Shown here piece by piece: positions 23,015 to 39,897 of a stretch of 64,000 bases of DNA. The translations under genes and the position numbers were made by a program. Position 1 is the stretch's first letter. Every line of letters starts with the position of its first letter. The notes under the pieces were generated by a model. It ran no database searches, was not told the origin of the DNA, and saw nothing but the letters and a program-made list of their open reading frames with translations. Origin of the DNA: Podarcis pityusensis (Eukaryota); the NCBI GenBank assembly GCA_964106645.2, contig OZ067051.1; one strand, 5' to 3'.

Positions 23015-25542
23015 CCTTCTGCCTTTAATTATTCACATGCACCTAAAGATATACGGGTGTCAGATTATTATTTTAAGTAACAATGTAGTTTGATAGCTGT
23101 GATCACTGTGTTGGCACCAAGAAATACAAATATAGTTTATTGGACCAAGTTCAGTTTGTAAGTTTGGTCTTCACAGAGCTCTTCATCAAGCAGTATCTAG
23201 ACAAAAAATTATCCACAACAAAGAATTCTGAAAAAAACAAAAACCTCAAAAGTATTTGCATACTCCTACTATACCAATGTAGATTCATGGCATAAAGTTA
23301 TTGTTTTGTCTAGTGCTCAAATTACAGGCAGTCAAATGGGGAGAGGCTACCTCCACCCTAACTTTTGTGTTGGGTTCCTTTTGCTTCCATTTTAAAAGAC
23401 TAAGGGAGGACATGATTTGGTCCTCTACCTCTACTCAAAGGTCACTAGCTAGGATCTTTCCCCTGTTTCTGTAACTATGTACCTGGCTGAGGACAGCAAT
23501 CTGGTCTTCAGCTATGCATTGCTTGGTTTGGTTGAGACCAGCCATCCGGTTTCACCTGTGTTAACTGCTTTATTTGGAAGACAAGAGGCAAAGTCTGGCC
23601 CCTTTCTATTTTCTGACACCTCCTTAGCTATTGTTTGCAAAAGGTTATGGGGAAACCTGTCATTTGGCTAAACTTGGGAGGAAACAGGGGCAAGTCTTGC
23701 AGATTTCCTTAAGGGTCCCCTTCCCTTCCCTCCGCCCTCCCCTAATTTCAGAACTGGTTTTAAATACTTGTTATTCTTAGCCATGGCCTGTCAGTGCAGC
23801 AGCAGCAGCAGATCCTGTGAAATCTCACCTCGCAGTGAATCAGAGATCCTCTCCAGCACGTGGAGCATCTCCACACCAAGCAGCGGGAAGTAGTTTTGGG
23901 GGAAGAAGACAGGCCGGTTTTCTTCCTGGAGCTTGTTGCCTAGGTGATCAGGGAGACAGGCCACCTTATTGAGGATGGCCTCCTGTAGGACTGAAGGGCC
24001 AGCTTGTGTTTGTTGTTTGCAGACTTCCCACATCAGAGCAGACAGTCCAGCTCTCTGCAGGAACTGCTCCAGCACATCGACAACTTTATTCAGACGGAAA
24101 CTGGGCCTGCATGGAAAGGTATTTTTCTGCCTTTGTTTTCAATTCATAAGGAAAAAGCAACTCAACAGATAACATCATCACCTGCAATTCTGGTGGTTGT
24201 TTTTTAAACCACACTTTTCTATGATTCCTGGTTGTGGGCAAAGACTTGAAAACATATAAGCAATGCGTATTGAGGATTCACAGATGTCCATCAAGCTGTT
24301 CTAGAATCATAGAATTTTAGGGTGTTTCCAACATTAGTCATACTCAAAGCAGACCCATTTATATCAACTAAGGAACATCAATTTCTGTTAGCTACCACCT
24401 TTAGAACTGGAAGGAATTTTAAAGAACATCTAACACAACTACAGGAAAGAATTATAGCATTCTTGACCAAAGGCAGTTCAGTCTTCCTCTAACATATCCA
24501 CACCACAATTATTTCCACACACTTACCCCATAACTCTTGTATAACTCCTGCAACCACACATCTCCTTTCTTTGAACCTCAGGATGATATCCCTTACTAAG
24601 GGATTCAAAATTCTGTGAAGCCCAAAATATTGCACCTAAGAATGTGTGAATTAGGCAAAATAGTCAAGTCTACATTGTTTTCTAAAGGGGAATTTTTAAC
24701 TTTTTATGGTGTAGAAATTGTATTCTTGGTATAAAACTATGATCAATCATGATAGCAACGTTTGCAAAGTGAGAGGTAAAATAAAAGCATATTTGGGTTC
24801 TGTCCATGCAGTACTGTATATTGAAACATTTACCAGGTTCAGAAATAACACTAAACTACAGTTCAATATTAGGAAAATGAGTCTTGGGATCATGCACTTT
24901 CTCCTCTTCACTACTTCTTGGCATGTATGAGAAGATCAAAAGCCTTTGCTTTTGTTTTTTGAATTAACCACAATCACCTGTTATTTCTAAACATGTGAAC
25001 TATGGTTTGCACTAACAGCAGCTAGTTAAAAAACATTGTTTTGAGTCTTATTTGTTTTAAGTAACCAGTTAGACAAACCTCAGTTCCTAAGTTAGAACAT
25101 ACAGGGATCTGTGATTAGTTTTAAAGGGAAAGGAGAAGCTTTCAATCTTCTCATGAACGCTGAAGAGGAGGGCACATGAGACCAACATTTAGCCATGCTC
25201 ATTCTCATGGTGCAAAACCATGCTATAGAGTTATGCCTGAATGCAGCCAATGACTCAGTTCAGATGTTATGCCAAACCATGGCTGAATGATTAGGCACAC
25301 CCTCAGCCCCTTGGCATTGCCTTCCATTTATGGCTTGTGGCAAACTAGTTTGCCCTTACATCCAAACTCAGAAACTACAGTTTGTAATTGGCTTGAAACC
25401 TAAGATGGGCAAACAGACTCAAACTAGGAGGGAGAAGACACAGTGCATGAGCACAAAGCTTATTCCATGCCAACTCACACAGCACCAAATAATGGATTTT
25501 CGAATTACATCTGAACTGAGCCTACAAGTGGGATTTAAAACA

Positions 25543-25577
<35 letters not shown>

Positions 25578-26174
25578 CTTTGCATATGCATTTTGACATT
25601 TTGGGATCCTCTTTCCCACTGCACCTCAAACATTACACCCTACTCCAAAAAGCTGCTATGAAATGTTGAGTGGCATCTGATGAAGTGCGAGACAGCTGTC
25701 AAAAATAAAAATCAGCAGTCTCCCTATGTGTGCAAAAGTGCTTTTAGCACTGGGCTCTTGGGATTCAGGCCTCTAGATTGAGAGCATCCTAAAAACAAAA
25801 CAGTTTTAGAATTAGAGATCACAGCACAGTAGCCATGCTTACGCTGTAGAAATAATGGTGTCCAAAAGAACCATAAAAGTTTGGTCTGCTGGTCCTTCCA
25901 AGAAAAAGCAATCCCATAACTCCTTATCTTCATCTGATTGGAACTGCTCCAGCCAATCAAGACTCAGGTTACTGATAAGACACTGCAGAAAGGTAGTAAA
26001 ATGATTACGAGTAAATTCTTCTTTCTCTTTCATGGAGGGTGGATTTTCAGTTCCACCAAGGTAGCTCTTAATTGTCCGCAAAGTCTCACAGATCTGGGCT
26101 CCATCTCTGGAAACAGATAGGGTGCCAATTGCTTCTTGTACTATATGGCGAACTTGAAGCAAGTCAGAATCCAT
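2812..26174 (-). CDS. TELO2: Telomere maintenance 2 (TTT complex subunit TEL2), complete CDS, 20 coding exons, 828 aa
   Basis: Exons: 25843-26174, 23829-24106, 22177-22245, 20610-20757, 19458-19560, 18603-18671, 15549-15690, 14753-14889, 13910-13998, 13206-13313, 13002-13090, 11917-12008, 11121-11237, 10721-10792, 10257-10427, 8929-9020, 7853-7952, 6527-6591, 5459-5574, 2812-2909. All introns are GT-AG, the sum is 2487 nt and the frame is open. Hallmark motifs: [56 protein letters not shown]. Confidence 0.96.
3558..3846. mobile_element. Tigger/pogo-like MITE
   Basis: TIRs CAGTGGTGCCTCG.../...CGGGGCACCACTG, TA duplication on both sides, internal CGTCTTGCG repeats. Confidence 0.85.
6127..6161. 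repeat. (TAAA)n microsatellite
   Basis: Direct reading; a similar tract lies at 58761-58791. Confidence 0.9.
11523..11658. mobile_element. Palindromic hAT-type MITE
   Basis: Near-perfect hairpin with 8-bp TSD ATCTAAAG. Degenerate relatives lie at about 7420, 12190, 15100, 34800, 35230, 40500, 40730, 45130, 54090 and 58950. Confidence 0.8.
16200..16227. repeat. (TG)n microsatellite
   Basis: Direct reading. Confidence 0.9.
16414..18182 (-). mobile_element. CR1 LINE, 5'-truncated (RT region and 3' end), in a TELO2 intron
   Basis: ORF fragments [39 protein letters not shown] and LERVQRRATK-like. The (ATTCTATG)n tail is at about 16414-16430. Several frameshifts. Confidence 0.95.
18961..19191 (-). 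mobile_element. Squamate tRNA-derived SINE
   Basis: CACAACAAACACTCTGTGAGGT...CCCAAGGTCACCCAGC core and a box-B-like end. Degenerate relatives at about 27700, 38800, 58050, 58250 and 59590. Confidence 0.7.
20278..20519. mobile_element. Tigger-like MITE (family A)
   Basis: TIR CAGTGGTACCTCGGGTTA and internal TTCAGGTTA repeats; near-identical to the copy at 57701. Confidence 0.85.
22400..22512 (-). mobile_element. Penelope-like element remnant with degenerate minimal hammerhead motif
   Basis: The minus strand reads CTGAAGA-A-GTGTGC-AT-GCACAC-GACA-GCTTATAC, followed by an inverted duplicate arm. A second copy lies at about 47920-48020. Confidence 0.6.
22968..23013. repeat. (CA)n microsatellite
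   Basis: Direct reading; other CA/TG tracts lie at 25547-25575 and 44199-44230. Confidence 0.9.
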
Positions 26175-26929: not shown

Positions 26930-27560
26930 CCGTAACGCGGAACCCAAGACACGTCTACTCGGAAGTAAGGCTCACTGAATTCAGTGGGACTTAATCCCCA
27001 CGCTGATGTGTAGAACAGGACCGCCCGGCGTGAGGGAGAAACGCCTCAGCCCCTCGCTTCCCGCCTTGTGAAGTTCCCACCTCCTCGCCTTCCCCCCGCC
27101 CCCGGGCGAGGCCTCACCAAGGGCAGAAATGATGCCACGGCTAACAGCGACCCCCCAAGACACTCTCCAATCAAGCCGGTGAACCTCAACCGGAAGTTCG
27201 TGTGTGTGTGCGCGCGTGTTATTCTAGCTTTTGCTTCGCGCTCTCTATGGTGCCCAATTGCGGCGGAGCCACCAGCGACGTCGCTTTTTACCGGAAGTTT
27301 ATCTCTGTGTGTTGTGCTGCCTTTTCTCTACGGTCCGTTCTCAACACTCCGGGTAATTGTTGTTGTTGTTTAGTCGTGTCCGACTCTTCGTGACCCCATG
27401 GACCAGAGCACTCCGGGTAATACGTTGTCTAAACAGCAGCAGCCGATTCGACGCTCCTGTCTTATGTGCGAGCGCCTCGAGCCGAGCCTGTCGAATCTGC
27501 TGATCTTTCTTACGACCCTTCGCAGCTCTCGCGCTCTCCCGGCCCGGCCCCTTTCTCTTC
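26930..27560 (-). promoter_or_regulatory. TELO2 CpG-rich promoter and probable non-coding exon 1
   Basis: Local CpG enrichment, two CCGGAAGT ETS/GABP-type boxes (about 27190 and 27291), a candidate exon-1 donor at 27116-27117 and the exon-2 acceptor at 26190-26191. Confidence 0.7.
27358..27408 (-). mobile_element. Extremely truncated BovB/RTE 3' end with 13-bp TSD
   Basis: Same 3' terminal sequence as the copy at 40997, flanked by the direct repeat CACTCCGGGTAAT (27345-27357 and 27409-27421). Confidence 0.85.
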
Positions 27561-29624: not shown

Positions 29625-32600
29625 TTATCGGGAAGAGTTGGAACTGGATCGGCTGCGATGACGCCTGCGGCCTGGAGATCTGGATCGTGACCGTCTGCGA
29701 ACTGGGGATCTGCGCCTGGGAGACCTGGACCTGAAAGGGAATATAGTTGCAAGGAAGAGAGTTGAGCTTCAGTTAGGAAAATGGATGGTAATGGAAAGTA
29801 ATCCACACTTATATAGTCCCTTTTTATTCAACAGCATTCAAGAGTAGTTCTTACATCCTAAAGGGTGAAGGCAGTTCAACATGCTAACATTTTGTAAATG
29901 CAGAAAGCAATATAGCAACTGTATAATAACTAAATAAATATTTTCTCAGTTCCTAGATCACAGTGTTTTATTTTTGCAAATACACGTCATCAGCTTATAT
30001 TAACAATAAAAATATTCCATCAATCTCGACTTAAACAGATAAGGCATATACGGTATGTTCAAACTTAGAATGAGTTGTGAGATTTTAGACACATGCCCCA
30101 TGAGTACTTGAGAAGGGTCTATAGGGCAGAGAATGTTGGAACCATTATGGCGCAAGTACTTCCACCTGCCTTCTTCCCCTAATGTATTTCTTAATGTATT
30201 TTTAAAAATAAAATTGCTGGATTTATTATTGTACATTTGGTATGCTGTGAGTCACTTTGAGCACTGTTGTGGAAAAATGGCATACAAACAAACTGACGCT
30301 AATGCTCTGGAAGGGGGCGCCTATCCTTCAATTACTTTGTGTAGGGACAGTCTTTGTTCGCCATCAGCTGTAGTGCAGGAAGTAAGTCACTGCCCATCCT
30401 TGGTGTGACTCATCTGAGACCGCAGGTGTCTTCTTTTTAGTTTGCCTCCCTGGACAGAGCTCCTACCAGCTGTGAACAGCTAAGCCCCTCCGGCTTACCC
30501 AGCTCCACAAAGGCAACCTACCTTCTCCTCATGCGAGGTGGAGAACGACGCCACATGGGCGGTGGCGGCAACATCCTCCGTGGAGGGGAGAAACGCCTGA
30601 GAGGCATCCTGGGCCGAGGAGTCAGGACAGCCGTGGCAGTGATCTCCTGACCATCAATCTGCCCTATTTAAAGATCACAGAAGCAGAAAGTTGATTTGTT
30701 TCAGCAGGGTGAGGGATTGACGCAAAGGCTCCCTGTAGCCACTGCCTTCTTGCTCACTAGGGAAGGTCAAACTATGGCAATGGTGGGGGGGAGCAGGGAA
30801 CCTAGAGAGAGATATTAATACACAAGTAAAACATACATGCAGGGAGATACCAAAAAGACATTGGGGAACCACAAACACCACTTTGCTTACCTATTACGAT
30901 CAGGCCCAGTTCCCTGACTGATTCCCTCTGTGCGTCATTAGCCCCTCCCAAGAAAAAAAGAGATTTGTAACCTCTGACCTACACTATAAATTCTTAAATG
31001 TCCAACATGGGACTGCAAGTTTTTCCTGGGACAAGCCTCTGCTTTCTTTAGGAATAATTGCTGCCAACTTATTCCAAGGTCTTTGCTCATGCCCACAGGT
31101 CCACTGCCTTTCTGGAGAATGCAGTTTACCTTGGGGGCCATTTTCATCAGGATGATCCACCCTTCTCACTTTGGGCCTGAAACCAACATGATGTGGTTGC
31201 AGAGGTCCCACCAGCCCATATTCCTGGCAGACAAGGTTGATTTTTTAAAAAAGAATTCATACAGGTAAAATGATATATTTGTATTATTATAAGAGTAAAA
31301 CTTGAAGAACGAAGAGCCTTATTTTGTTCAGGTGTGCTCTGCAAAGAGCCCTCCTAGCTGGTAGAACCTATATCACTTTTGGGAAATCTGAAACCCTTGC
31401 TTTAATGGCGTGATCATCTCAAATTACAGATTTTTCAGTTATGTAGGAGTCACACCTCTTAACAATGCAGCCAGATTCTGAAACCCACCTCCATCCATGT
31501 GCTTCAGTGCCTTCTCAGCATCATCTGGATTCTCAAATTCTACATATGCATAACCCTTTGAGAGGTGTGGGTTGAGTCTGTCGACTGGCATATCAATCAT
31601 TTTGATCTTTCCATAAGTGGAAAATATTTCCATTATGTGGTCCTGGAAGAGGAAAAGCAAGCTCCTTAACGCTCATGGCAAATGTTCATTACCTTCCATC
31701 TTCATAACAACAAAACACTGAATGGGCAGCGGCGGAAGCAGCGGCGGAAGCAGCAGCAGCAGCAACACCCACCCACCCACCTTTAACTGGATTTGAACAA
31801 AAAGAGTGAAGACCATTCAATTACATATTGAAACGCTTCAACAGTTTTGCTTCCCAGGTTACCTGAACTTAACTCAGCTATATCTATAGGAGAATAAGAA
31901 GAGCCTGCTGGACCAAGCCAGTGGCCCATCTAGTCCAGCACACTGTTCTCACAGGGGTCAAGGCTCTCGCAAGCAGGGCCTGAGCACAACAGCACTCTCC
32001 CCTATAGAGATCTAGTGTATCAATACTGGGAGGGACCCTTGGTCAACAGCATTCCCAGCATTCATATTCAATATGGACTTACAGGAAGCTGTCTTATACT
32101 GAGTCAGACCATTGGTTCTGGGGGACTTTTGTTTCCCTACCCTCTTTGGCCTTTTTACTTCTTTCTGGGTATGAGTGAACAACAGGCATCTGTTACCTTC
32201 GTCACATTTCTGGTGAGTCTCCCAACATGTACTTTGGTAGGTTTGGGTGATGGACTCCTTCTCTTCCGTTCCTTTTCATCTCTCTTAGGCGGTTTAGACC
32301 TTGTGGAAATAAACAAAAAGTGTCAAACAAAAATTTAAACGTATGGATCTGCAACTCAAGCTCTTCATTAACTCCTATCATGCAGCATGACAAAAAAAAC
32401 CACCAATGATCTTATTCTGTATTCCTTGCTAAATTTGTTTTTTTTAAAAAGTGGCTGGTGCAACAACTACAGGCCATTTATAGTTTGCAAGAAATAATTA
32501 TGCTAAAAGTGAGTAACTATTGAGGTTTAACTTAAATTCAGTAGGGCTTGGAGGGACCTTTACTTGATACTATCCACCAAGTTTGAAATTTAGAAGCATC

Positions 32601-34372
32601 CTTTTCATAAAACACAGGTTCCCAAAGATGAGATTCAAAAGGCAAAGAACTGGCCAATCTGCTATTTTACCCACTTCTGCCTCTGGCCCACTGCTAGCAT
32701 GTGCCCCTCCCCAAGAAAGAAACATGGGCTTTGAGCTGAAAAGTGTTCCCCACCCTTGTCTTACAGGAAGCACGTATCAAGGCCAATGGAAATAAAATAG
32801 CCAGTAGCCTCCAGTAATCTAGACTCACTTTGAACGGGAACGCCTCCTGTTGTCATGCCGATGTCGAGATGGGCTTGGAGAACCCGATGAGCTGCTGGAG
32901 CTGGAACTGCGGGATGTGCTTGAACTCCCAGAGCGGCTTGACGCGGAGGAGGAGCTGGAGCCACTGCTGGAGCCGGTGCTGGAGCTAGAACCAGAACTGG
33001 ATGTGGAACTGGAGCGAGACCTGGCAGAGAAGGTGTCATGCAAGAGACTAATGGCAACAAGGGTGTTCTCCCGATAACCCCCAAGAACTTTTGAAGGTGT
33101 TGGAAAGAACACACCATTGTCTTTTGCAGTTCCAACCCAAACCTGGCCACCTCCCAATGCAGAGGTGATGCTCTTTCTAAATCATTTCACTTATTGTACA
33201 AATGGTCCTTTGTCAAAAAACAGATTTCAGAGCAATATACAAAAGTCACCTCAAATTACAAATACCTTATAAAACCAATTTCATGAAGAATGAGAAAAAC
33301 ATTCAAACCACTAAAAATGCCACCATCTAAAATGCTCAGGCAAAGGAAAATCTTTTAACAGTCTCTGAAATTACCTCCCTTTGGAGGGTGTTCCACAGCT
33401 GAAGTGCCCATAACACACACACCCCTTTGTAAATGCAGGACACACATCTTCTAAAGATGAACACCAAGAAGGGCCTCCCCTCCAAACAGATCATTAGGGT
33501 GCAAACGACCTCCTGTGCGAAACCACACACAAACCCCCAATATCTCAATCAGAGAAGAGGACCTGAAGTCAAGTATGTGTTTAGCATTACTGCTTCACTC
33601 AACTTACAACCGACCTGCTGGTTCACATCAAGGGGCATATTTTAAGTTCTCAAGCTTAACTGCCCTACATTCCTGGGAATCTCACAAGTAGGGCATGGTG
33701 AGACAGCCACCACAACTCCATCCCTGTATCCAACATCTGAAGAGTTAAAAGGTTTCCTCTGTCTGAGCATGGCGGCATCATTTTTTAACTGCCGATTAAG
33801 AATCCTTGGGAAGGCCTGGTCCTTGAAACGGCCTTCAGAAACCCAAGAATTCCTGACTCTGCTTACCTGGTGCTGCTACTACCACTGGAGGCGCTGCGCC
33901 TCTTGCGAGTTTTGTCACGCCCACGATCCTTTTCGCTTGACTCCTTTGTAGCTGGCTTGTCTTTGGACCTGTCCTTGGACTTTTCTTCTGTACGGTCCTT
34001 GCGCTTGGTAGGAGAGGGAGCCCTTTAATGAACAAGGTTCAGAAACTTAATTTCCAATCCCGCAATTTCAGTTGCAACAAAAGCAAGAAATGTCACTGCT
34101 ACAAAGATGCTAAGAGACAAATCCCCAGTGTTTACACTATGGAGCGGCTTCATGAAAGAAAGCCAATGGTGTGGAATATATGGAGATTATGAAAAGGAGG
34201 GAAGATGCATTTCTAATTCCTCATGCTTGATGGGAAATCCCTAGGAGTCTGCACAGATCCCCCAAGAGGGGTGAGGCCTTGAACATTCAGACAATTATTA
34301 CCTAGTGCTGGACTTTTTATTATTTTCTTTGATTCCTAGCAAACTCTTCTTTTTCATTCCTGACAGCTCCAT
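29625..34372 (-). CDS. RNPS1: RNA-binding protein with serine-rich domain 1 (EJC/ASAP component), complete CDS, 7 coding exons, 307 aa
   Basis: Exons: 34302-34372, 33867-34022, 32829-33020, 32197-32299, 31489-31642, 30522-30663, 29625-29730 (924 nt, GT-AG). The protein has MELSGMKKKSLLG..., a Ser-rich tract, the RRM (DHIMEIFSTYGKIKMIDMP...KGYAYVEFENPDDAEKALKHMDGGQIDGQEIT) and an RS/P tail ending SSSNSSR*. Confidence 0.97.
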
Positions 34373-35435
34373 TTTCCCCTTCCGAGTCCAAAAGCGGCAC
34401 TTTTTTGGGGGGGCTCACTTATCTGAAAGCTTACTTCTAACTCCTTGATTCTGAGAAACGATCCCTAAGCGAATGCAATAAACTCCAAAGAGCAGCCTAG
34501 TGACAAGATAAAAGGGATATGAGACAGTTAACATATAGGCAGAGGAAAAGAAAACCCACTTCACAAGAAAAGGCACAAGCTTCATGCAAAGCATTATAGT
34601 TCACACACTTCTGTGTGGCTTGTTATTACCCATTTGAAAATAGCATCTGCTGAATAACTTAAGAGTGTGTTTACACAGAGCATTTGAATTTTCTTTCTAA
34701 TCACCCTTCAAAAGGAGGAAGAACACACAGCAAAGCACACAGAGTTTTTCAGTCTGAATTTCTTAGTACTTTTCCTTAAGATATGCAGCATTACAACAGG
34801 ACAGTGGTAGCCAACATGGTGCCCTCCGTGTGAATTGAACTCCAACTCCCATCAGCCTGTCATCACAGCCAACTCTCATGGATGATTGGAGTTACAGTTT
34901 GGCAACATCTGGAGAACGCCACGTCGGCTACCTCTGCAATAGAAAGCAAGGTACCTCAACAGGACATTGTGGTACAGTAGTAGCAAGAAAGCATTTTAAG
35001 TCCCAGGAAAACTATAGTAGATTTTAATTGTTTATAAGAATTTCTACTGCTCTTCCTAAATTCTTAATGCAGTTTCTCATTACTACTGCTAAGCTTTATC
35101 TTGTATTGATACAGAGTGCTGCAGTTAAGTCTGCAATTTCAGCTCCATGGTCACTCCCAGAGACTATTAAATGTAACAGAGCAGAAGCAAAGCACAGCGC
35201 AAAACCCTATCCTCAGATCACACAACGGGGTGGTAAAACCTGTGGTCTTCCAGATGTTCTTGGACTCCAACTCCCATCAGCCCCAGCCAGAATAGCCAAT
35301 GGTCGGGGTGATGGGAGTTGGCAAACCAACAAAATTAGGAGGGCCACCATTTCCCATCTGTGGTATAAAAGAACCTCAGTTGGAAATGCTGCTGGCTATT
35401 CCAGATAAGCTACAGCAAGTCCTTATGGGTTACAC

Positions 35436-35759
35436 CAGGGGTCAGCAACCTTTTTCAGCCGTGGGCCGGTCCACTGTCCCTCAGACCATGTGGCGGGCCG
35501 GACTATATTTTTTGGGGGGGAGGGAATGAACGAATTCCTATGCCTCACAAGTAACCCAGAGATGCATTTTAAATAAAAGCATGCATTCTACTCATGTAAA
35601 AACACCAGGCAGGCCCCACAAATAACCCAGAGATGCATTTTAAATAAAAGGACACATTCTACTGACGTAGAAACACACTGATTCCTGGACCATCCGTGGG
35701 CCGGATTGAGAAGGCGATGGGTCGCATCCAGCCCACGTGCCTTAGATTGCCTTCTCCTG
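35436..35759. mobile_element. hAT-type non-autonomous element in RNPS1 intron 1
   Basis: CAGGGGTCAGCAACC...TCCTG termini, perfect 8-bp TSD GGTTACAC, internal tandem duplication. Confidence 0.8.
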
Positions 35760-37649
35760 GGTTACACACATTGTGGGCTCAAGAGTGTCTCTGTAGTCTG
35801 AGAGTAGCTATGGCTTATTTCAAGTACTTTAATTCTACCCCTCAGTATAGAACCCAAGGTGTTTTAAAGTCATACATTAAAAACAATGACTATTTTAGAA
35901 TGGTAGAGTACAGGGTACTGTACATTTCAGATTAAGTGTATGTATTTTTCTCTAGCAAACCAGCATCACAGCAATCTACGGGAAATGGGTGGAAACTCTG
36001 AAAACAAAGGTTTTCATCCTTGTAGTTCAATTCCTGTACACTGCTATGCTCAAGTAAGTCAACAGGCACTGAGAGAGCAAGGTTGCTTTGATGTACATTT
36101 GACGTACGAAGGACAAATATGTTTTATCATCGTTAAGATTAACACTTGGAACTATTACTTTATGGAGGGCAGCCTGGATTAAAATTAAAGATGCATTTTC
36201 ATGTGCTGAGACTTCTCTCAGGCACATTATACACACAAACTGTGTATAATGTGCTTATGCAAATAACCCTTTGGGAAGGTCCAAAGTAAGCTCCAACAGG
36301 CCATTATTCTACTGGTGTCTGTAACTTAAATTGCAAGTGCCTGAAGCAGTTCAAACATAAGGGAAAGCACATACTGTTATACCACTCTGCTTCTGCTATA
36401 GCAGAAGACTATTCCCACAAGCTTAGCTTTTCACTTGAAGCTCTGGTTAAGTATTTCTGCACGAGTCATTCAAGAAGGCAGCTCTTGCTTTTGTGGGATT
36501 AAAGGTATTATTCCTCTATATCCACACTTCATGACCCACTCTCTAAGTGGTACAAAAACAATTTGAAAGAACCTGTTCAGGTTAAATGAGGTCTTGAATT
36601 AACTTGGTGGTTAAGAGAAATCAGTGAACCCTCAGTAAAAGAGAACTGTCTGCTGTATATCACATCCTCAGTGCTTTAAGACCAGGAACACCAAGCCCAA
36701 GCTTACCAGTACTGCCCAAAAAGTAAAGAAAGAAATATTGTGTACAAACTTCAATAGTGCCTAGAGGTCTTTCTGTGGGAATCACTGACTTTGCAAACTG
36801 ACTCTTATCAGCATGTTCACAAAGCTAGCAGAATGGCTACCTGTATACCTTACTGTGTTTGGGCAATACAGTACATTTACTTCACTGTGGTGAAAAGCCA
36901 CTTGGTACATAATCAAGTGAATGCTTTTAGTCTTAGTGTTTTAAACATATCAGTGGACTTGCATATTTGTCTAAGTAATCACTGATATTATTGAAAGGCA
37001 ATTTCTTTGCTATTGATAAAGAAATATTAAGTGAATTATAATAGCACCTGCCACACTACTGCTCTTCACTACCACCATCCCAAGAAGACCCTCTAAGACC
37101 AAGACCACCCTCTAAGACCAAGAGGGACCAGAGATTTGAACCTGAGCTTCCCAGGTACAAGCTATATCCTGTACTAGCTCTGCAAGCTGGCTGAATGGAC
37201 AACAGGTTACATCTAAAAGTAAGAATCGTACAACCACAGTGCTGCAACATAAAGCCATATCTGAGAATCCACTGAATGAATCCCCATGCTGGAAGCCAAG
37301 GTTTAAGAGGTAACCAATGGGGCCAGTGTGGTGCAACACTTAGCATTACAGAAGCAAGAGGGTTAAATCCCTGGTCAGTCACAAAGCTCAACGGAGTGGC
37401 CTTGGCCAGTCTGAGGGATCACAACAGGCCTATCTCACAGGGCTGTTATGAGGTTAAAACGGGGGTAAGGGAGAGAGGAACCATAAACTCCATCCTGTAT
37501 TTCCTTGGATAAGGGATTGTCTTTTCCAACATCAAATAGATAACACGATCGATATAATAATAGAAGGACGCAACTTGAATGTGCACAGTACTGGTCAGGC
37601 AATTAAGGGGGCTTGAAGGAGACTTTCAGAGTGGGCTCCAGGAAGTTTG

Positions 37650-38210
37650 GGAGACCCCTCAAGGGGGGGGGCGGGGAGGGAAGAGAAACGAACCCCCTCC
37701 TCAACTGGGCCTAGCTGGCGAGACGAGCTTTCCTCGCCCGACACGGAGAAAGAGGGAAACGGGAAGGGGCGGAGCAAATCGGCTCTGCCGCTTCAGTCAA
37801 CCGACCCCACACAGCGCCTCTAAGGGCTCCCAAACTCTCCCCTCCAGCCAAGGCCTCCGCGCTCCTCGAGCTCCTCCGCGGGGCCGACCTCCCTCACAGA
37901 CCCACCCCCAGCGTCCGGGAACCTTTTCTTGCCACACTCGGGCGTAGTCACGGTTAACTGCAACCGGACCGGGGCAGATGGCGGCGGATTACCGCCTCTC
38001 CCCTCTACTTACATCCTCAGAGCCCGACCGTCGCTCCCTCGTCGCGCTCGCGGTGACGTACGGATTGCCGCCTTCCACACAGCGGCAAAGAGCAGCTAGG
38101 TGGCGCGCGCTGATAGCGTCACCGAAAGAAAGGAAGCGCGGAGAGGAGAGGCGGGGTAGCCATTTATCTCCATGGTTACTGGCCCCACTTAAAGGGGCAG
38201 ATCGACCCTT
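37650..38210 (-). promoter_or_regulatory. RNPS1 CpG island, promoter and exon 1 (donor GTAAGT after 38013)
   Basis: CpG-dense region. CRE-like TGACGT/GCGTCA (about 38054 and 38116), YY1-like AGATGGCGGC (37976-37985), GC box at about 37766, and a consensus 5' splice site GAT|GTAAGT. Confidence 0.8.
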
Positions 38211-39897
38211 TTTGTTGTGGTAGTTTAAGGCCCCATGGAGATAAAAAAGAAGGTTTTTTAGGAGGGTAGGGAGAATCCAACAACAACCCACTTATCTGTT
38301 CTTAAAACATGATAACGGAAAGGGGAAATGGGAGTTGAAAGGATTATTGGCTCATCCTGGATTTTCCCCCAAGCGCCTAGCACTTTGGACATTAAACATT
38401 TTTTTAATTTTTTTTATTCAAAATTATAACAAGACATATTATCCAAAAACATATCATCCTTATCCCCCCCCCCATTTTTCCTCCCTCCCCCCTCCCACAC
38501 AGAACCCCAACTCCACCCCACCCACCCCGACTTCCCTCAGTTCCAGTCTTTGGTTTTTCTAATGCTGTTTTCTGCATGTTACAAAGTTGTATAGATCCTC
38601 AAACTGTTTAGCTGATTATTATCAATAAAAAAAATTGTGAATGTTTATTCAAACCTGCCAAGGAGTCCAGTTCGCTGGACATTAAACATTTTAATAAACT
38701 CAGTGGGAAGGCCTGCTGAGACCCCTGGCACGGGAGGCTAAGGGAGAATGCTTAGAGCCTGCCCAGATCCCTTTAATGTTGTTATTCTTCCTTCAAGGAG
38801 CTCAAGGTGGCATGCGTTGTTCTTCCCCCTTACTAATTTTATCCTTGCAACAACCCTGTGAGGTTCGGTAGGCAGCGTCTAACCTACCACACAAGGCTGT
38901 TGCATGGATAAAATAGGATACTTCATAAGTGTCCTGCATTCCTTGGGGGAAGGTTAGGATAAAATGTAATCAATAAGCAGCTGTATGGCAAACAGGCAGG
39001 GATTAAAACAGCAGAATAAAAGAGGCATGTGGCAAACAGTGTTTACTCTGGTGTGAGCTTTCATGGAGTAGGGTCAACTTCATAAAATACATGAAATGCT
39101 ATCTTTAGATGGCAGATTGTACAGATAGACACATTTTTATTTTGTGTCTTTGCTTAAAACCTATTTATGTATTTTGTTACATTTGGATTCTACGTTTTTT
39201 CTGTTATAGCACACATGCCTGAGAATTAGTCAAAAATCTTATTTGTGACTTTTAGTTTGTTCCAAAAAAGTTATTACACCACTGTTATTTTGGGGTTTCC
39301 CCCCCTTTATAGGTAGCTAACCAACACAGCTACCTGTGAATATGTTACAATTTAATGACATGACTAATGTCCAGTACAACAAACCAAATCTACTTACCGG
39401 CTATGAAACAGCAACCATCACACACCTCATTGCAGTCTAAATTCCCATAGATTTCAGTGGGAATTGAATTAAATCATGACGAACTTGTTTGACAAATTTC
39501 AGTGGGACCCAAGTTCAGCTAATTCGTTTGGAACCGACCTTATTTATTTATTAAATGTAAAATGTATCACTTTAAAGGTCTTTATGATCACTTTAAAGGT
39601 CACCAATGTCTCAGCTGCGGGCACATTTGTGCCCATAGGGTACCCCCACCAGCTGAAAATAGGTTTGAAGGAAGCATTCTATCATAGCCAATGTACTGTA
39701 CTTTAATTTTGTTTTAAACTGCCACACACACACACACCCTACAGTGGTGCCCCCTGCTCGCTCTATTGAAACATCTGCCACTGTTTAAAATCAACACTAT
39801 TGTTCTCATTATCTTTCCATCCCTGCTTTACTCAAATGTAAAAGTGCCATTTCCCTCTCAGTGTCCTTCTACTCCCACTTTACTAAACTTTTGCCAT

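What the first reader, a model, noticed from the sequence alone, without database searches (positions are those of the whole stretch)
33867..38014. RNPS1 start codon assembled by splicing, with exon 2 acting as a uORF/poison switch
Seen: exon 1 ends ...GAGGAT|gtaagt, and both exon 2 (starts 34496) and exon 3 (starts 34022) begin with G, so either splice creates AT|G. Skipping exon 2 gives MAPSPTKRK..., a shorter in-frame RNPS1. Including the 195-nt exon 2 gives a 27-aa ORF (MLLFGVYCIRLGIVSQNQGVRSKLSDK*) that stops at 34415-34417. That stop is 113 nt before the next junction and 42 nt, in frame, before the second ATG (34372). Established: RNPS1 is an EJC/NMD factor, and stops more than 50-55 nt upstream of a junction trigger NMD. 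Inference: an autoregulatory switch between a short isoform and an NMD-sensitive or reinitiation-dependent long isoform.
Basis: partly seen in the sequence, partly recalled or inferred. Interest (0 to 1): 0.7.

Follow-up and report, generated by a model that had tools for sequence, protein, structure and literature searches.

The report
One start codon, three splice fates
In a reptile (likely a lizard), the RNA-surveillance gene RNPS1 is spliced so that one start codon opens either the protein itself or a short upstream reading frame also catalogued in humans, which likely tunes how much and which form of the protein is made rather than destroying the RNA.

Summary
The anatomy is real and every coordinate checks. 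In one single-cell run of a close relative, 496 reads join exon 1 to exon 2, 424 leave exon 1 into exon 3 sequence, and 21 use a second donor. So about 46% of reads at the main donor skip exon 2. Skipping puts the AUG on the main frame (284 aa). Inclusion turns it into a 27-codon uORF ahead of a second AUG (307 aa). The second donor leaves it as AUG-stop. The same split-start uORF is catalogued in human as Ribo-seq ORF c16norep15, and Met-before-exon-3 isoforms are annotated in birds and mammals. The 'poison' reading is weak. The inclusion form is the larger share and encodes the canonical protein. The stop is AUG-proximal with a strong AUG 42 nt on. Human RNPS1 shows no gene-level NMD response. 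Autoregulation is untested. Best reading: a PTBP3-like splice-coupled uORF dial on protein amount and N-terminus. The parts are catalogued; I found no paper treating them as a switch.

The parts
38013..38054 (-). Exon 1 (31-42 nt from the two main inferred start sites, 38043 and 38054); ends in AT
   Evidence: (adapter-like loose ends behind 38043, 113 reads, and 38054, 298 reads)
38012..38014 (-). AUG1: genomic ATG overlapping the exon 1 donor; A at -3; in spliced mRNA its G comes from the next exon
   Evidence: human counterpart has 2 nt in exon 1
38007..38012 (-). Main 5' splice site GTAAGT; when it is not used, AUG1 is followed directly by TAA
37923..38054 (-). Extended exon 1 (second donor, intron starts 37922), joined to exon 2; AUG1 becomes AUG-stop
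   Evidence: 21 reads, 14 starts
34302..34496 (-). Cassette exon 2 (195 nt): uORF body, 42-nt spacer, AUG2 and 71 coding nt (23-residue N-terminal extension)
34415..34496 (-). Exon 2 part of the 27-codon uORF, TGA at 34417-34415; C at +4 of AUG1
   Evidence: human c16norep15; rat RNPS1-like P0029
34370..34372 (-). AUG2, start of the 307-aa form (A at -3, G at +4); a third in-frame ATG at 34357
33867..34022 (-). Exon 3; joined to exon 1 it gives MAPSP..., with G at +4 of AUG1
   Evidence: single copy in the genome
32829..33020 (-). Exon 4 (serine-rich region)
   Evidence: model
32197..32299 (-). Exon 5
   Evidence: model
31489..31642 (-). Exon 6 (RRM core)
   Evidence: Pfam RRM_1 E 1.4e-14; single copy
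30522..30663 (-). Exon 7
   Evidence: model
29625..29730 (-). Coding part of last exon 8, to the main stop
   Evidence: model

Best explanation
One AUG at the exon 1 donor of RNPS1 is reassigned by splicing to the main frame (exon 2 skipped), to a 27-codon uORF (exon 2 included) or to an AUG-stop (second donor), and this likely works as a dial on protein amount and N-terminus rather than as a poison exon. Shown: the three joins, their read shares (45%, 53% and 2% in one run of a relative), and the conserved split-start uORF in human. Inferred: skipping gives AUG1 its best context (A-3, G+4) and yields the 284-aa form efficiently. Inclusion weakens AUG1 (C+4), diverts part of the ribosomes into the uORF, and makes the 307-aa form only by leaky scanning or reinitiation at the strong AUG2. 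Those ribosomes would strip the downstream junction complexes, so the mRNA mostly escapes NMD. The uORF peptide itself is probably not the functional product.
For: Coordinates and contexts. Joins: 496, 424 and 21 reads. Single-copy gene, so the skip reads are unlikely to come from a retrocopy (window's genome). Human uORF c16norep15, 26 aa with 2 nt in exon 1, scored 'conserved', 0 MS studies, PhyloCSF mammals -115; 22 of 27 positions match the window's uORF (compared by eye). Rat RNPS1-like P0029 begins with the uORF peptide: score 67 against a shuffled maximum of 43 over 200 shuffles. Met-before-exon-3 records in two birds, platypus, a seal and primates. No gene-level NMD response of human RNPS1. 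AUG-proximal stops and reinitiation favour escape. PTBP3 precedent.
Against: No protein-level or reporter measurement was available, so repression by the uORF is not shown. The read shares come from one run of a related organism, not deduplicated; the two bulk runs had depth 1-3 and the contig run looked like DNA. The skip join is read from loose ends, not from a laid joint. The gene-level NMD table also misses SRSF2 (meta FDR 0.90), whose minor isoforms are NMD targets, so it is insensitive to isoform effects. The same review cites a study in which reinitiation after uORFs did not reduce NMD. c16norep15 belongs, by its name, to the ORFs seen in a single Ribo-seq dataset (recalled).
Confidence: 0.55

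Rival explanations
1. Autoregulatory NMD switch: RNPS1 or the EJC promotes exon 2 inclusion, the uORF stop triggers NMD, and RNPS1 output falls.
For: The stop is 113 nt before the next junction, with six junctions downstream. RNPS1 abundance can set NMD efficiency (title of PMC1935013; passages). One cited study found uORF translation triggers NMD regardless of reinitiation. The non-canonical part of exon 2 is conserved from this reptile to human.
Against: Inclusion is 53% of junction reads at steady state. Human gene-level FDRs are 0.61-1. The stop is AUG-proximal. The exon encodes the canonical N-terminus, which a classical poison exon does not. None of the listings of 10 paper searches showed RNPS1 autoregulation.
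Confidence: 0.17
2. By-product: the 284-aa form is the old gene, exon 2 was added later to supply an optional 23-residue N-terminus, and the uORF follows passively from the old AUG at the donor. Its conservation reflects splice signals, not translational control.
For: PhyloCSF is strongly negative and there is no MS support. All four substitutions against human are non-conservative (by eye). Spacing and frame to AUG2 appear to differ between species. A pipefish RNPS1-like isoform also starts Met-before-exon-3 (P0098), and 0 of 20 named non-amniote records carry the exon 2-type start (many are partial or paralogues).
Against: The only indel against human is one whole codon, and the stop is kept at the same place. 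Conservation runs over the whole uORF, well beyond the acceptor. A translated uORF with A at -3 is rarely neutral for downstream initiation (established scanning model).
Confidence: 0.22
3. The 27-aa uORF encodes a functional micropeptide or arrest peptide.
For: 22 of 27 positions are identical to the human peptide, and it is catalogued as 'conserved'.
Against: PhyloCSF is -9.7 (primates) and -115 (mammals), with 0 MS studies. There is no Pfam match. The differences are non-conservative.
Confidence: 0.06

Closest known systems
Human RNPS1 uORF c16norep15 (GENCODE Ribo-seq ORF set, row in PMC10032668 supplement file 2) and annotated Met-before-exon-3 RNPS1 isoforms
   Same: Orthologous gene; uORF start split with 2 nt in exon 1; 22 of 27 positions identical; same stop position; short isoform annotated, e.g. 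XP_014108244.1 (bird) and a platypus short/long pair.
   Different: The human uORF is one codon shorter. The catalogue lists it as an ORF only; the papers seen do not link it to exon 2 skipping or to regulation.
PTBP3 exon 2 / AUG1 switch (PMC4477659, passages seen)
   Same: A cassette exon 2 decides whether AUG1 opens the main frame or a uORF; downstream AUGs are reached by leaky scanning and reinitiation; the mRNAs are not NMD-sensitive; the products differ at the N-terminus.
   Different: Polarity is reversed: in PTBP3 inclusion gives the main frame. The PTBP3 AUG1 lies within exon 1, whereas here it overlaps the donor, so the splice choice also sets its +4 base. PTBP3's regulators are known; RNPS1's are not.
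Poison exons / AS-NMD autoregulation of splicing factors (SRSF2, PTBP1; SRSF7 split-ORF)
   Same: A conserved alternative exon in an RNA-binding-protein gene brings in an early stop more than 55 nt before a junction.
   Different: Here the exon-containing mRNA is the larger share and encodes the full canonical protein; NMD sensitivity and feedback are not shown.

Membership tests
Poison exon (AS-NMD autoregulation) | Alternatively included exon | tested here: met
   496 inclusion versus 424 skip reads in run X21
Poison exon (AS-NMD autoregulation) | Stop more than 50-55 nt upstream of a junction | tested here: met
   113 nt
Poison exon (AS-NMD autoregulation) | Inclusion leaves no full-length coding frame | tested here: not met
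   Inclusion keeps a 307-aa frame from AUG2; this start type is in 52 of 369 fetched proteins
Poison exon (AS-NMD autoregulation) | Isoform is stabilised when NMD is blocked | tested here: inconclusive
   Human gene-level FDR 0.61-1, but the table also misses SRSF2; isoform tables unreadable or without an RNPS1 row
Poison exon (AS-NMD autoregulation) | The gene's own product controls inclusion | not testable with these tools
   Needs RNPS1 knockdown or overexpression junction data
Splice-coupled uORF / alternative-start switch (PTBP3 type) | Splicing moves one AUG between main frame and uORF | tested here: met
Splice-coupled uORF / alternative-start switch (PTBP3 type) | The uORF is translated | tested here: inconclusive
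   Human orthologue is in a Ribo-seq catalogue; no ribosome data for this species
Splice-coupled uORF / alternative-start switch (PTBP3 type) | A downstream AUG is used by leaky scanning or reinitiation | not testable with these tools
   AUG2 in strong context 42 nt after the stop; use inferred from the canonical 305-aa protein
Conserved-peptide uORF (CPuORF) | uORF conserved in position and sequence over a wide range | tested here: met
   Human and rat RNPS1-like record
Conserved-peptide uORF (CPuORF) | Constraint on the peptide rather than the nucleotides | tested here: not met
   Published PhyloCSF -9.7 / -115; dN/dS not computed here
RNPS1 orthologue | Serine-rich region, single RRM, RS/P-rich tail; closest to named RNPS1 proteins | tested here: met
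   RRM_1 E 1.4e-14; exon 3 96% identical to a cobra record; last 59 residues of the model match a turtle RNPS1

The most novel reading that the evidence does not exclude
RNPS1 sets its own dose through exon 2. One amniote-conserved AUG overlapping the first donor is steered by splicing into three fates, the splice choice also rewrites its +4 Kozak base, and RNPS1/ASAP or the EJC pushes inclusion to cut its own translation without NMD. The 282-284-aa form, not the 305-aa form used in most studies, would then be the main cellular protein.
Probability: 0.2. Interest if true: 0.7.

Novelty: new member of a known kind. Interest (0 to 1): 0.42.

Why it matters
RNPS1 level can limit NMD efficiency and guards splice fidelity (PMC1935013 title; passages of PMC9178013 and PMC9170173), yet no control of its own level appeared in my searches. 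If about half of the mRNA carries a conserved repressive uORF and the other half starts at an optimal AUG, exon 2 is the obvious place for that control, and work done only with the 305-aa form may miss the commoner protein. The test is cheap, because public human NMD-inhibition and RNPS1-knockdown RNA-seq can be recounted at two junctions. If it fails, this is an ordinary annotated isoform pair.

Tried and rejected
Reads: no listed holder is on record as RNA. Bulk runs X23 and X24 had depth 1-3 on the exons. Contig run X1 covered introns at depth 6-7 and not the exons, so it was set aside. Homologue searches: the uORF frame found no candidate. A DNA pattern from exon 2 found 0 metagenome matches. 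The 29 metagenome loci from alignment A1 were 45-68% identical, distant relatives, and were not used. The 50% representatives added one named pipefish record only. Canonical fish and frog RNPS1 did not come up, so the age of exon 2 is open. RNA structure: 34373-34520 folds no better than shuffles (z 0.68); rejected. In-frame TGA/AUG2 as a readthrough device: rejected as unlikely, since a mammalian record matches the +1 frame and a cobra record seems to cross the stop in the +2 frame (short, by-eye matches), and 72 of 278 X21 reads lack one base at 34407 (near read ends, so possibly an artefact). Supplements: PMC7530721 (animal CPuORF list) and PMC9178013 (isoform tables for RNPS1 and SMG6/7 depletion) could not be read and may bear directly. 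Held files of PMC8233366 and PMC8361881 have no RNPS1 row, which is uninformative. PMC10908861 lists a different, 144-nt RNPS1 uORF on another human transcript (file cut). The paper reader was closed, so PMC13275300 and the split-start papers were seen only as listings. Earlier findings: nothing relevant.
Full report
Identity. The region is the 5' end of RNPS1 on the minus strand of a 1.5-Gb genome. Exon 6 matches RRM_1 (E 1.4e-14), exon 3 is 96% identical to a cobra record, and the gene is single copy by three searches. A squamate, likely a lizard, is inferred from these matches. The eight-exon model gives 284 aa without exon 2 and 307 aa from the ATG inside it.

Observation. The sequence coincidence alone is not remarkable: 7 of 7 acceptors in this gene begin with G and ATGTRAGT occurs 4 times in the window against 4.47 expected. 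The ATG also exists before splicing, because the donor supplies a G, and it is then followed by TAA. Splicing therefore decides what follows the AUG.

Transcripts. I laid four runs of a close relative (organism A, not the best DNA holder) on 34350-38250. Only X21, a single-cell run read to about 6%, was informative. It has 496 reads (82 starts) joining 38013 to 34496, and 21 reads (14 starts) joining a second donor at 37923 to exon 2. It also has 424 reads that leave exon 1 at the main donor with a loose end whose consensus equals the first 30 letters after the G of exon 3. Shares are 53%, 2% and 45% of 941. Loose ends behind 38054 (298 reads) and 38043 (113) look like template-switch adapters (type recalled), which places the main start sites 40 and 29 nt before the AUG; a minority of reads reach about 38127.

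Three fates of one AUG. With exon 3, AUG1 has A at -3 and G at +4 and opens the 284-aa frame. With exon 2, it has C at +4 and opens the uORF; AUG2 downstream has A at -3 and G at +4. With the second donor it reads AUG-TAA. The effects on initiation are inferred from the scanning model, not measured.

Conservation. A supplement row of PMC10032668 lists human Ribo-seq ORF c16norep15 in RNPS1: 26 aa, two bases in exon 1 (2268055-2268056) and the rest in exon 2, 'conserved', 0 MS studies, PhyloCSF -9.71 in primates and -115.09 in mammals. By eye, 22 of 27 positions match the window's uORF, with four non-conservative changes and one whole-codon gap. A rat RNPS1-like record, probably a retrocopy, begins with the same peptide (score 67; maximum 43 in 200 shuffles over 151 proteins). 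Of 352 fetched proteins, 40 begin with Met directly before exon 3-like sequence. These include two birds, platypus (with a long partner), a seal model and a pipefish isoform; the primate ones have diverged tails, and most of the rest are ruminant RNPS1-like genes, likely retrocopies of the skip mRNA (inferred). No exon 2-type start occurs in 20 named non-amniote records, many partial, so exon 2 may be a later addition; this is weak. The in-frame relation of stop and AUG2 seems not to be kept: a mammalian record matches the window's +1 frame across the stop and a cobra record seems to use +2 (short matches, scores low).

Poison or dial. For NMD: the stop meets the 50-55-nt rule, and one study cited in a review found that uORF translation triggers NMD regardless of reinitiation. 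Against: the inclusion form is the larger share and encodes the canonical protein (305 aa in mouse). Stops within the first 150 coding nt and with a nearby AUG often escape. In the UPF1/SMG6/SMG7 knockdown-rescue table of PMC5238794, RNPS1 has FDR 1, 1, 0.61 and meta 0.996, against 2.6e-22 for SMG5. That table is gene-level and also misses SRSF2, so partial isoform-specific decay is not excluded, though a strong effect on a majority isoform should show. [quoted passage not shown] Autoregulation has no evidence either way.

Best reading (0.55): a splice-coupled uORF and alternative-start switch that sets RNPS1 amount and N-terminus, mostly without decay. Rivals are a passive by-product of a later-added exon (0.22), NMD autoregulation (0.17) and a functional micropeptide (0.06).

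Comparison. It works like the PTBP3 exon 2 switch, where AUG1 alternates between main frame and uORF, downstream AUGs are reached by leaky scanning and reinitiation, and UPF1 knockdown does not stabilise the mRNAs (passages of PMC4477659). Polarity is reversed, and here the AUG overlaps the donor. It fails one defining feature of poison exons (inclusion keeps a full frame) and one of conserved-peptide uORFs (no coding-type constraint in the published score).

What I saw of the papers. Passages: PMC9170173, PMC12019242, PMC9178013, PMC12047184, PMC4477659, PMC9661723, PMC1935013. Supplement rows: PMC10032668, PMC10908861, PMC5238794. Supplements searched without a hit: PMC8233366, PMC8361881. 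Supplements unreadable: PMC7530721, PMC9178013. Listings only: the rest. Ten full-text searches listed no paper on RNPS1 exon 2 skipping, its uORF or its autoregulation; I saw 20-30 rows of the larger result sets, and subscription journals are missing. One search lists two papers containing 'start codon is split' (PMC3668367, TOGA2 preprint), so split starts are known as such.

Verdict. Real, abundant and conserved; both parts are already catalogued in databases; the switch reading is plausible and not found in print; the poison/autoregulation claim is unsupported at present. New member of a known kind, interest 0.42.

Noticed in passing
window 23833-26174 (minus), CpG-rich start region near 27000-27550: TELO2 follows RNPS1 closely on the same strand: 23833-24105 is 64% identical to the TELO2 part of a swallow model that fuses both genes. 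TELO2 stabilises PIKK kinases including SMG1 (recalled), so two NMD-linked genes are neighbours; probably ordinary synteny.
   Followed up: partly
window 34743-34900 and 35136-35790: Interspersed repeats (SINE-like) in intron 1 that attract reads from elsewhere in the genome; contig depth up to 53,000.
   Followed up: no
window 34407 and 34382: One base left out in 72 of 278 and 15 of 65 reads of run X21, in runs of C and A between the uORF stop and AUG2; allele, slippage or read-end artefact.
   Followed up: partly
proteins P0048, P0116, P0123, P0186, P0109: Two families of diverged ruminant RNPS1-like genes begin at Met directly before exon 3-like sequence; likely retrogenes of the skip mRNA, one with a curated cattle record.
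   Followed up: partly
protein P0064 cluster (20 members): A 211-213-aa RNPS1 form that joins the exon 2 N-terminus to the end of the serine-rich region is annotated from marsupials to turkey; not checked in the window.
   Followed up: no
window 34357: A third in-frame ATG five codons after AUG2, where mammals have Val.
   Followed up: no
window 37090-37125: Short direct repeat of about 19 bases in intron 1 (seen).
   Followed up: no
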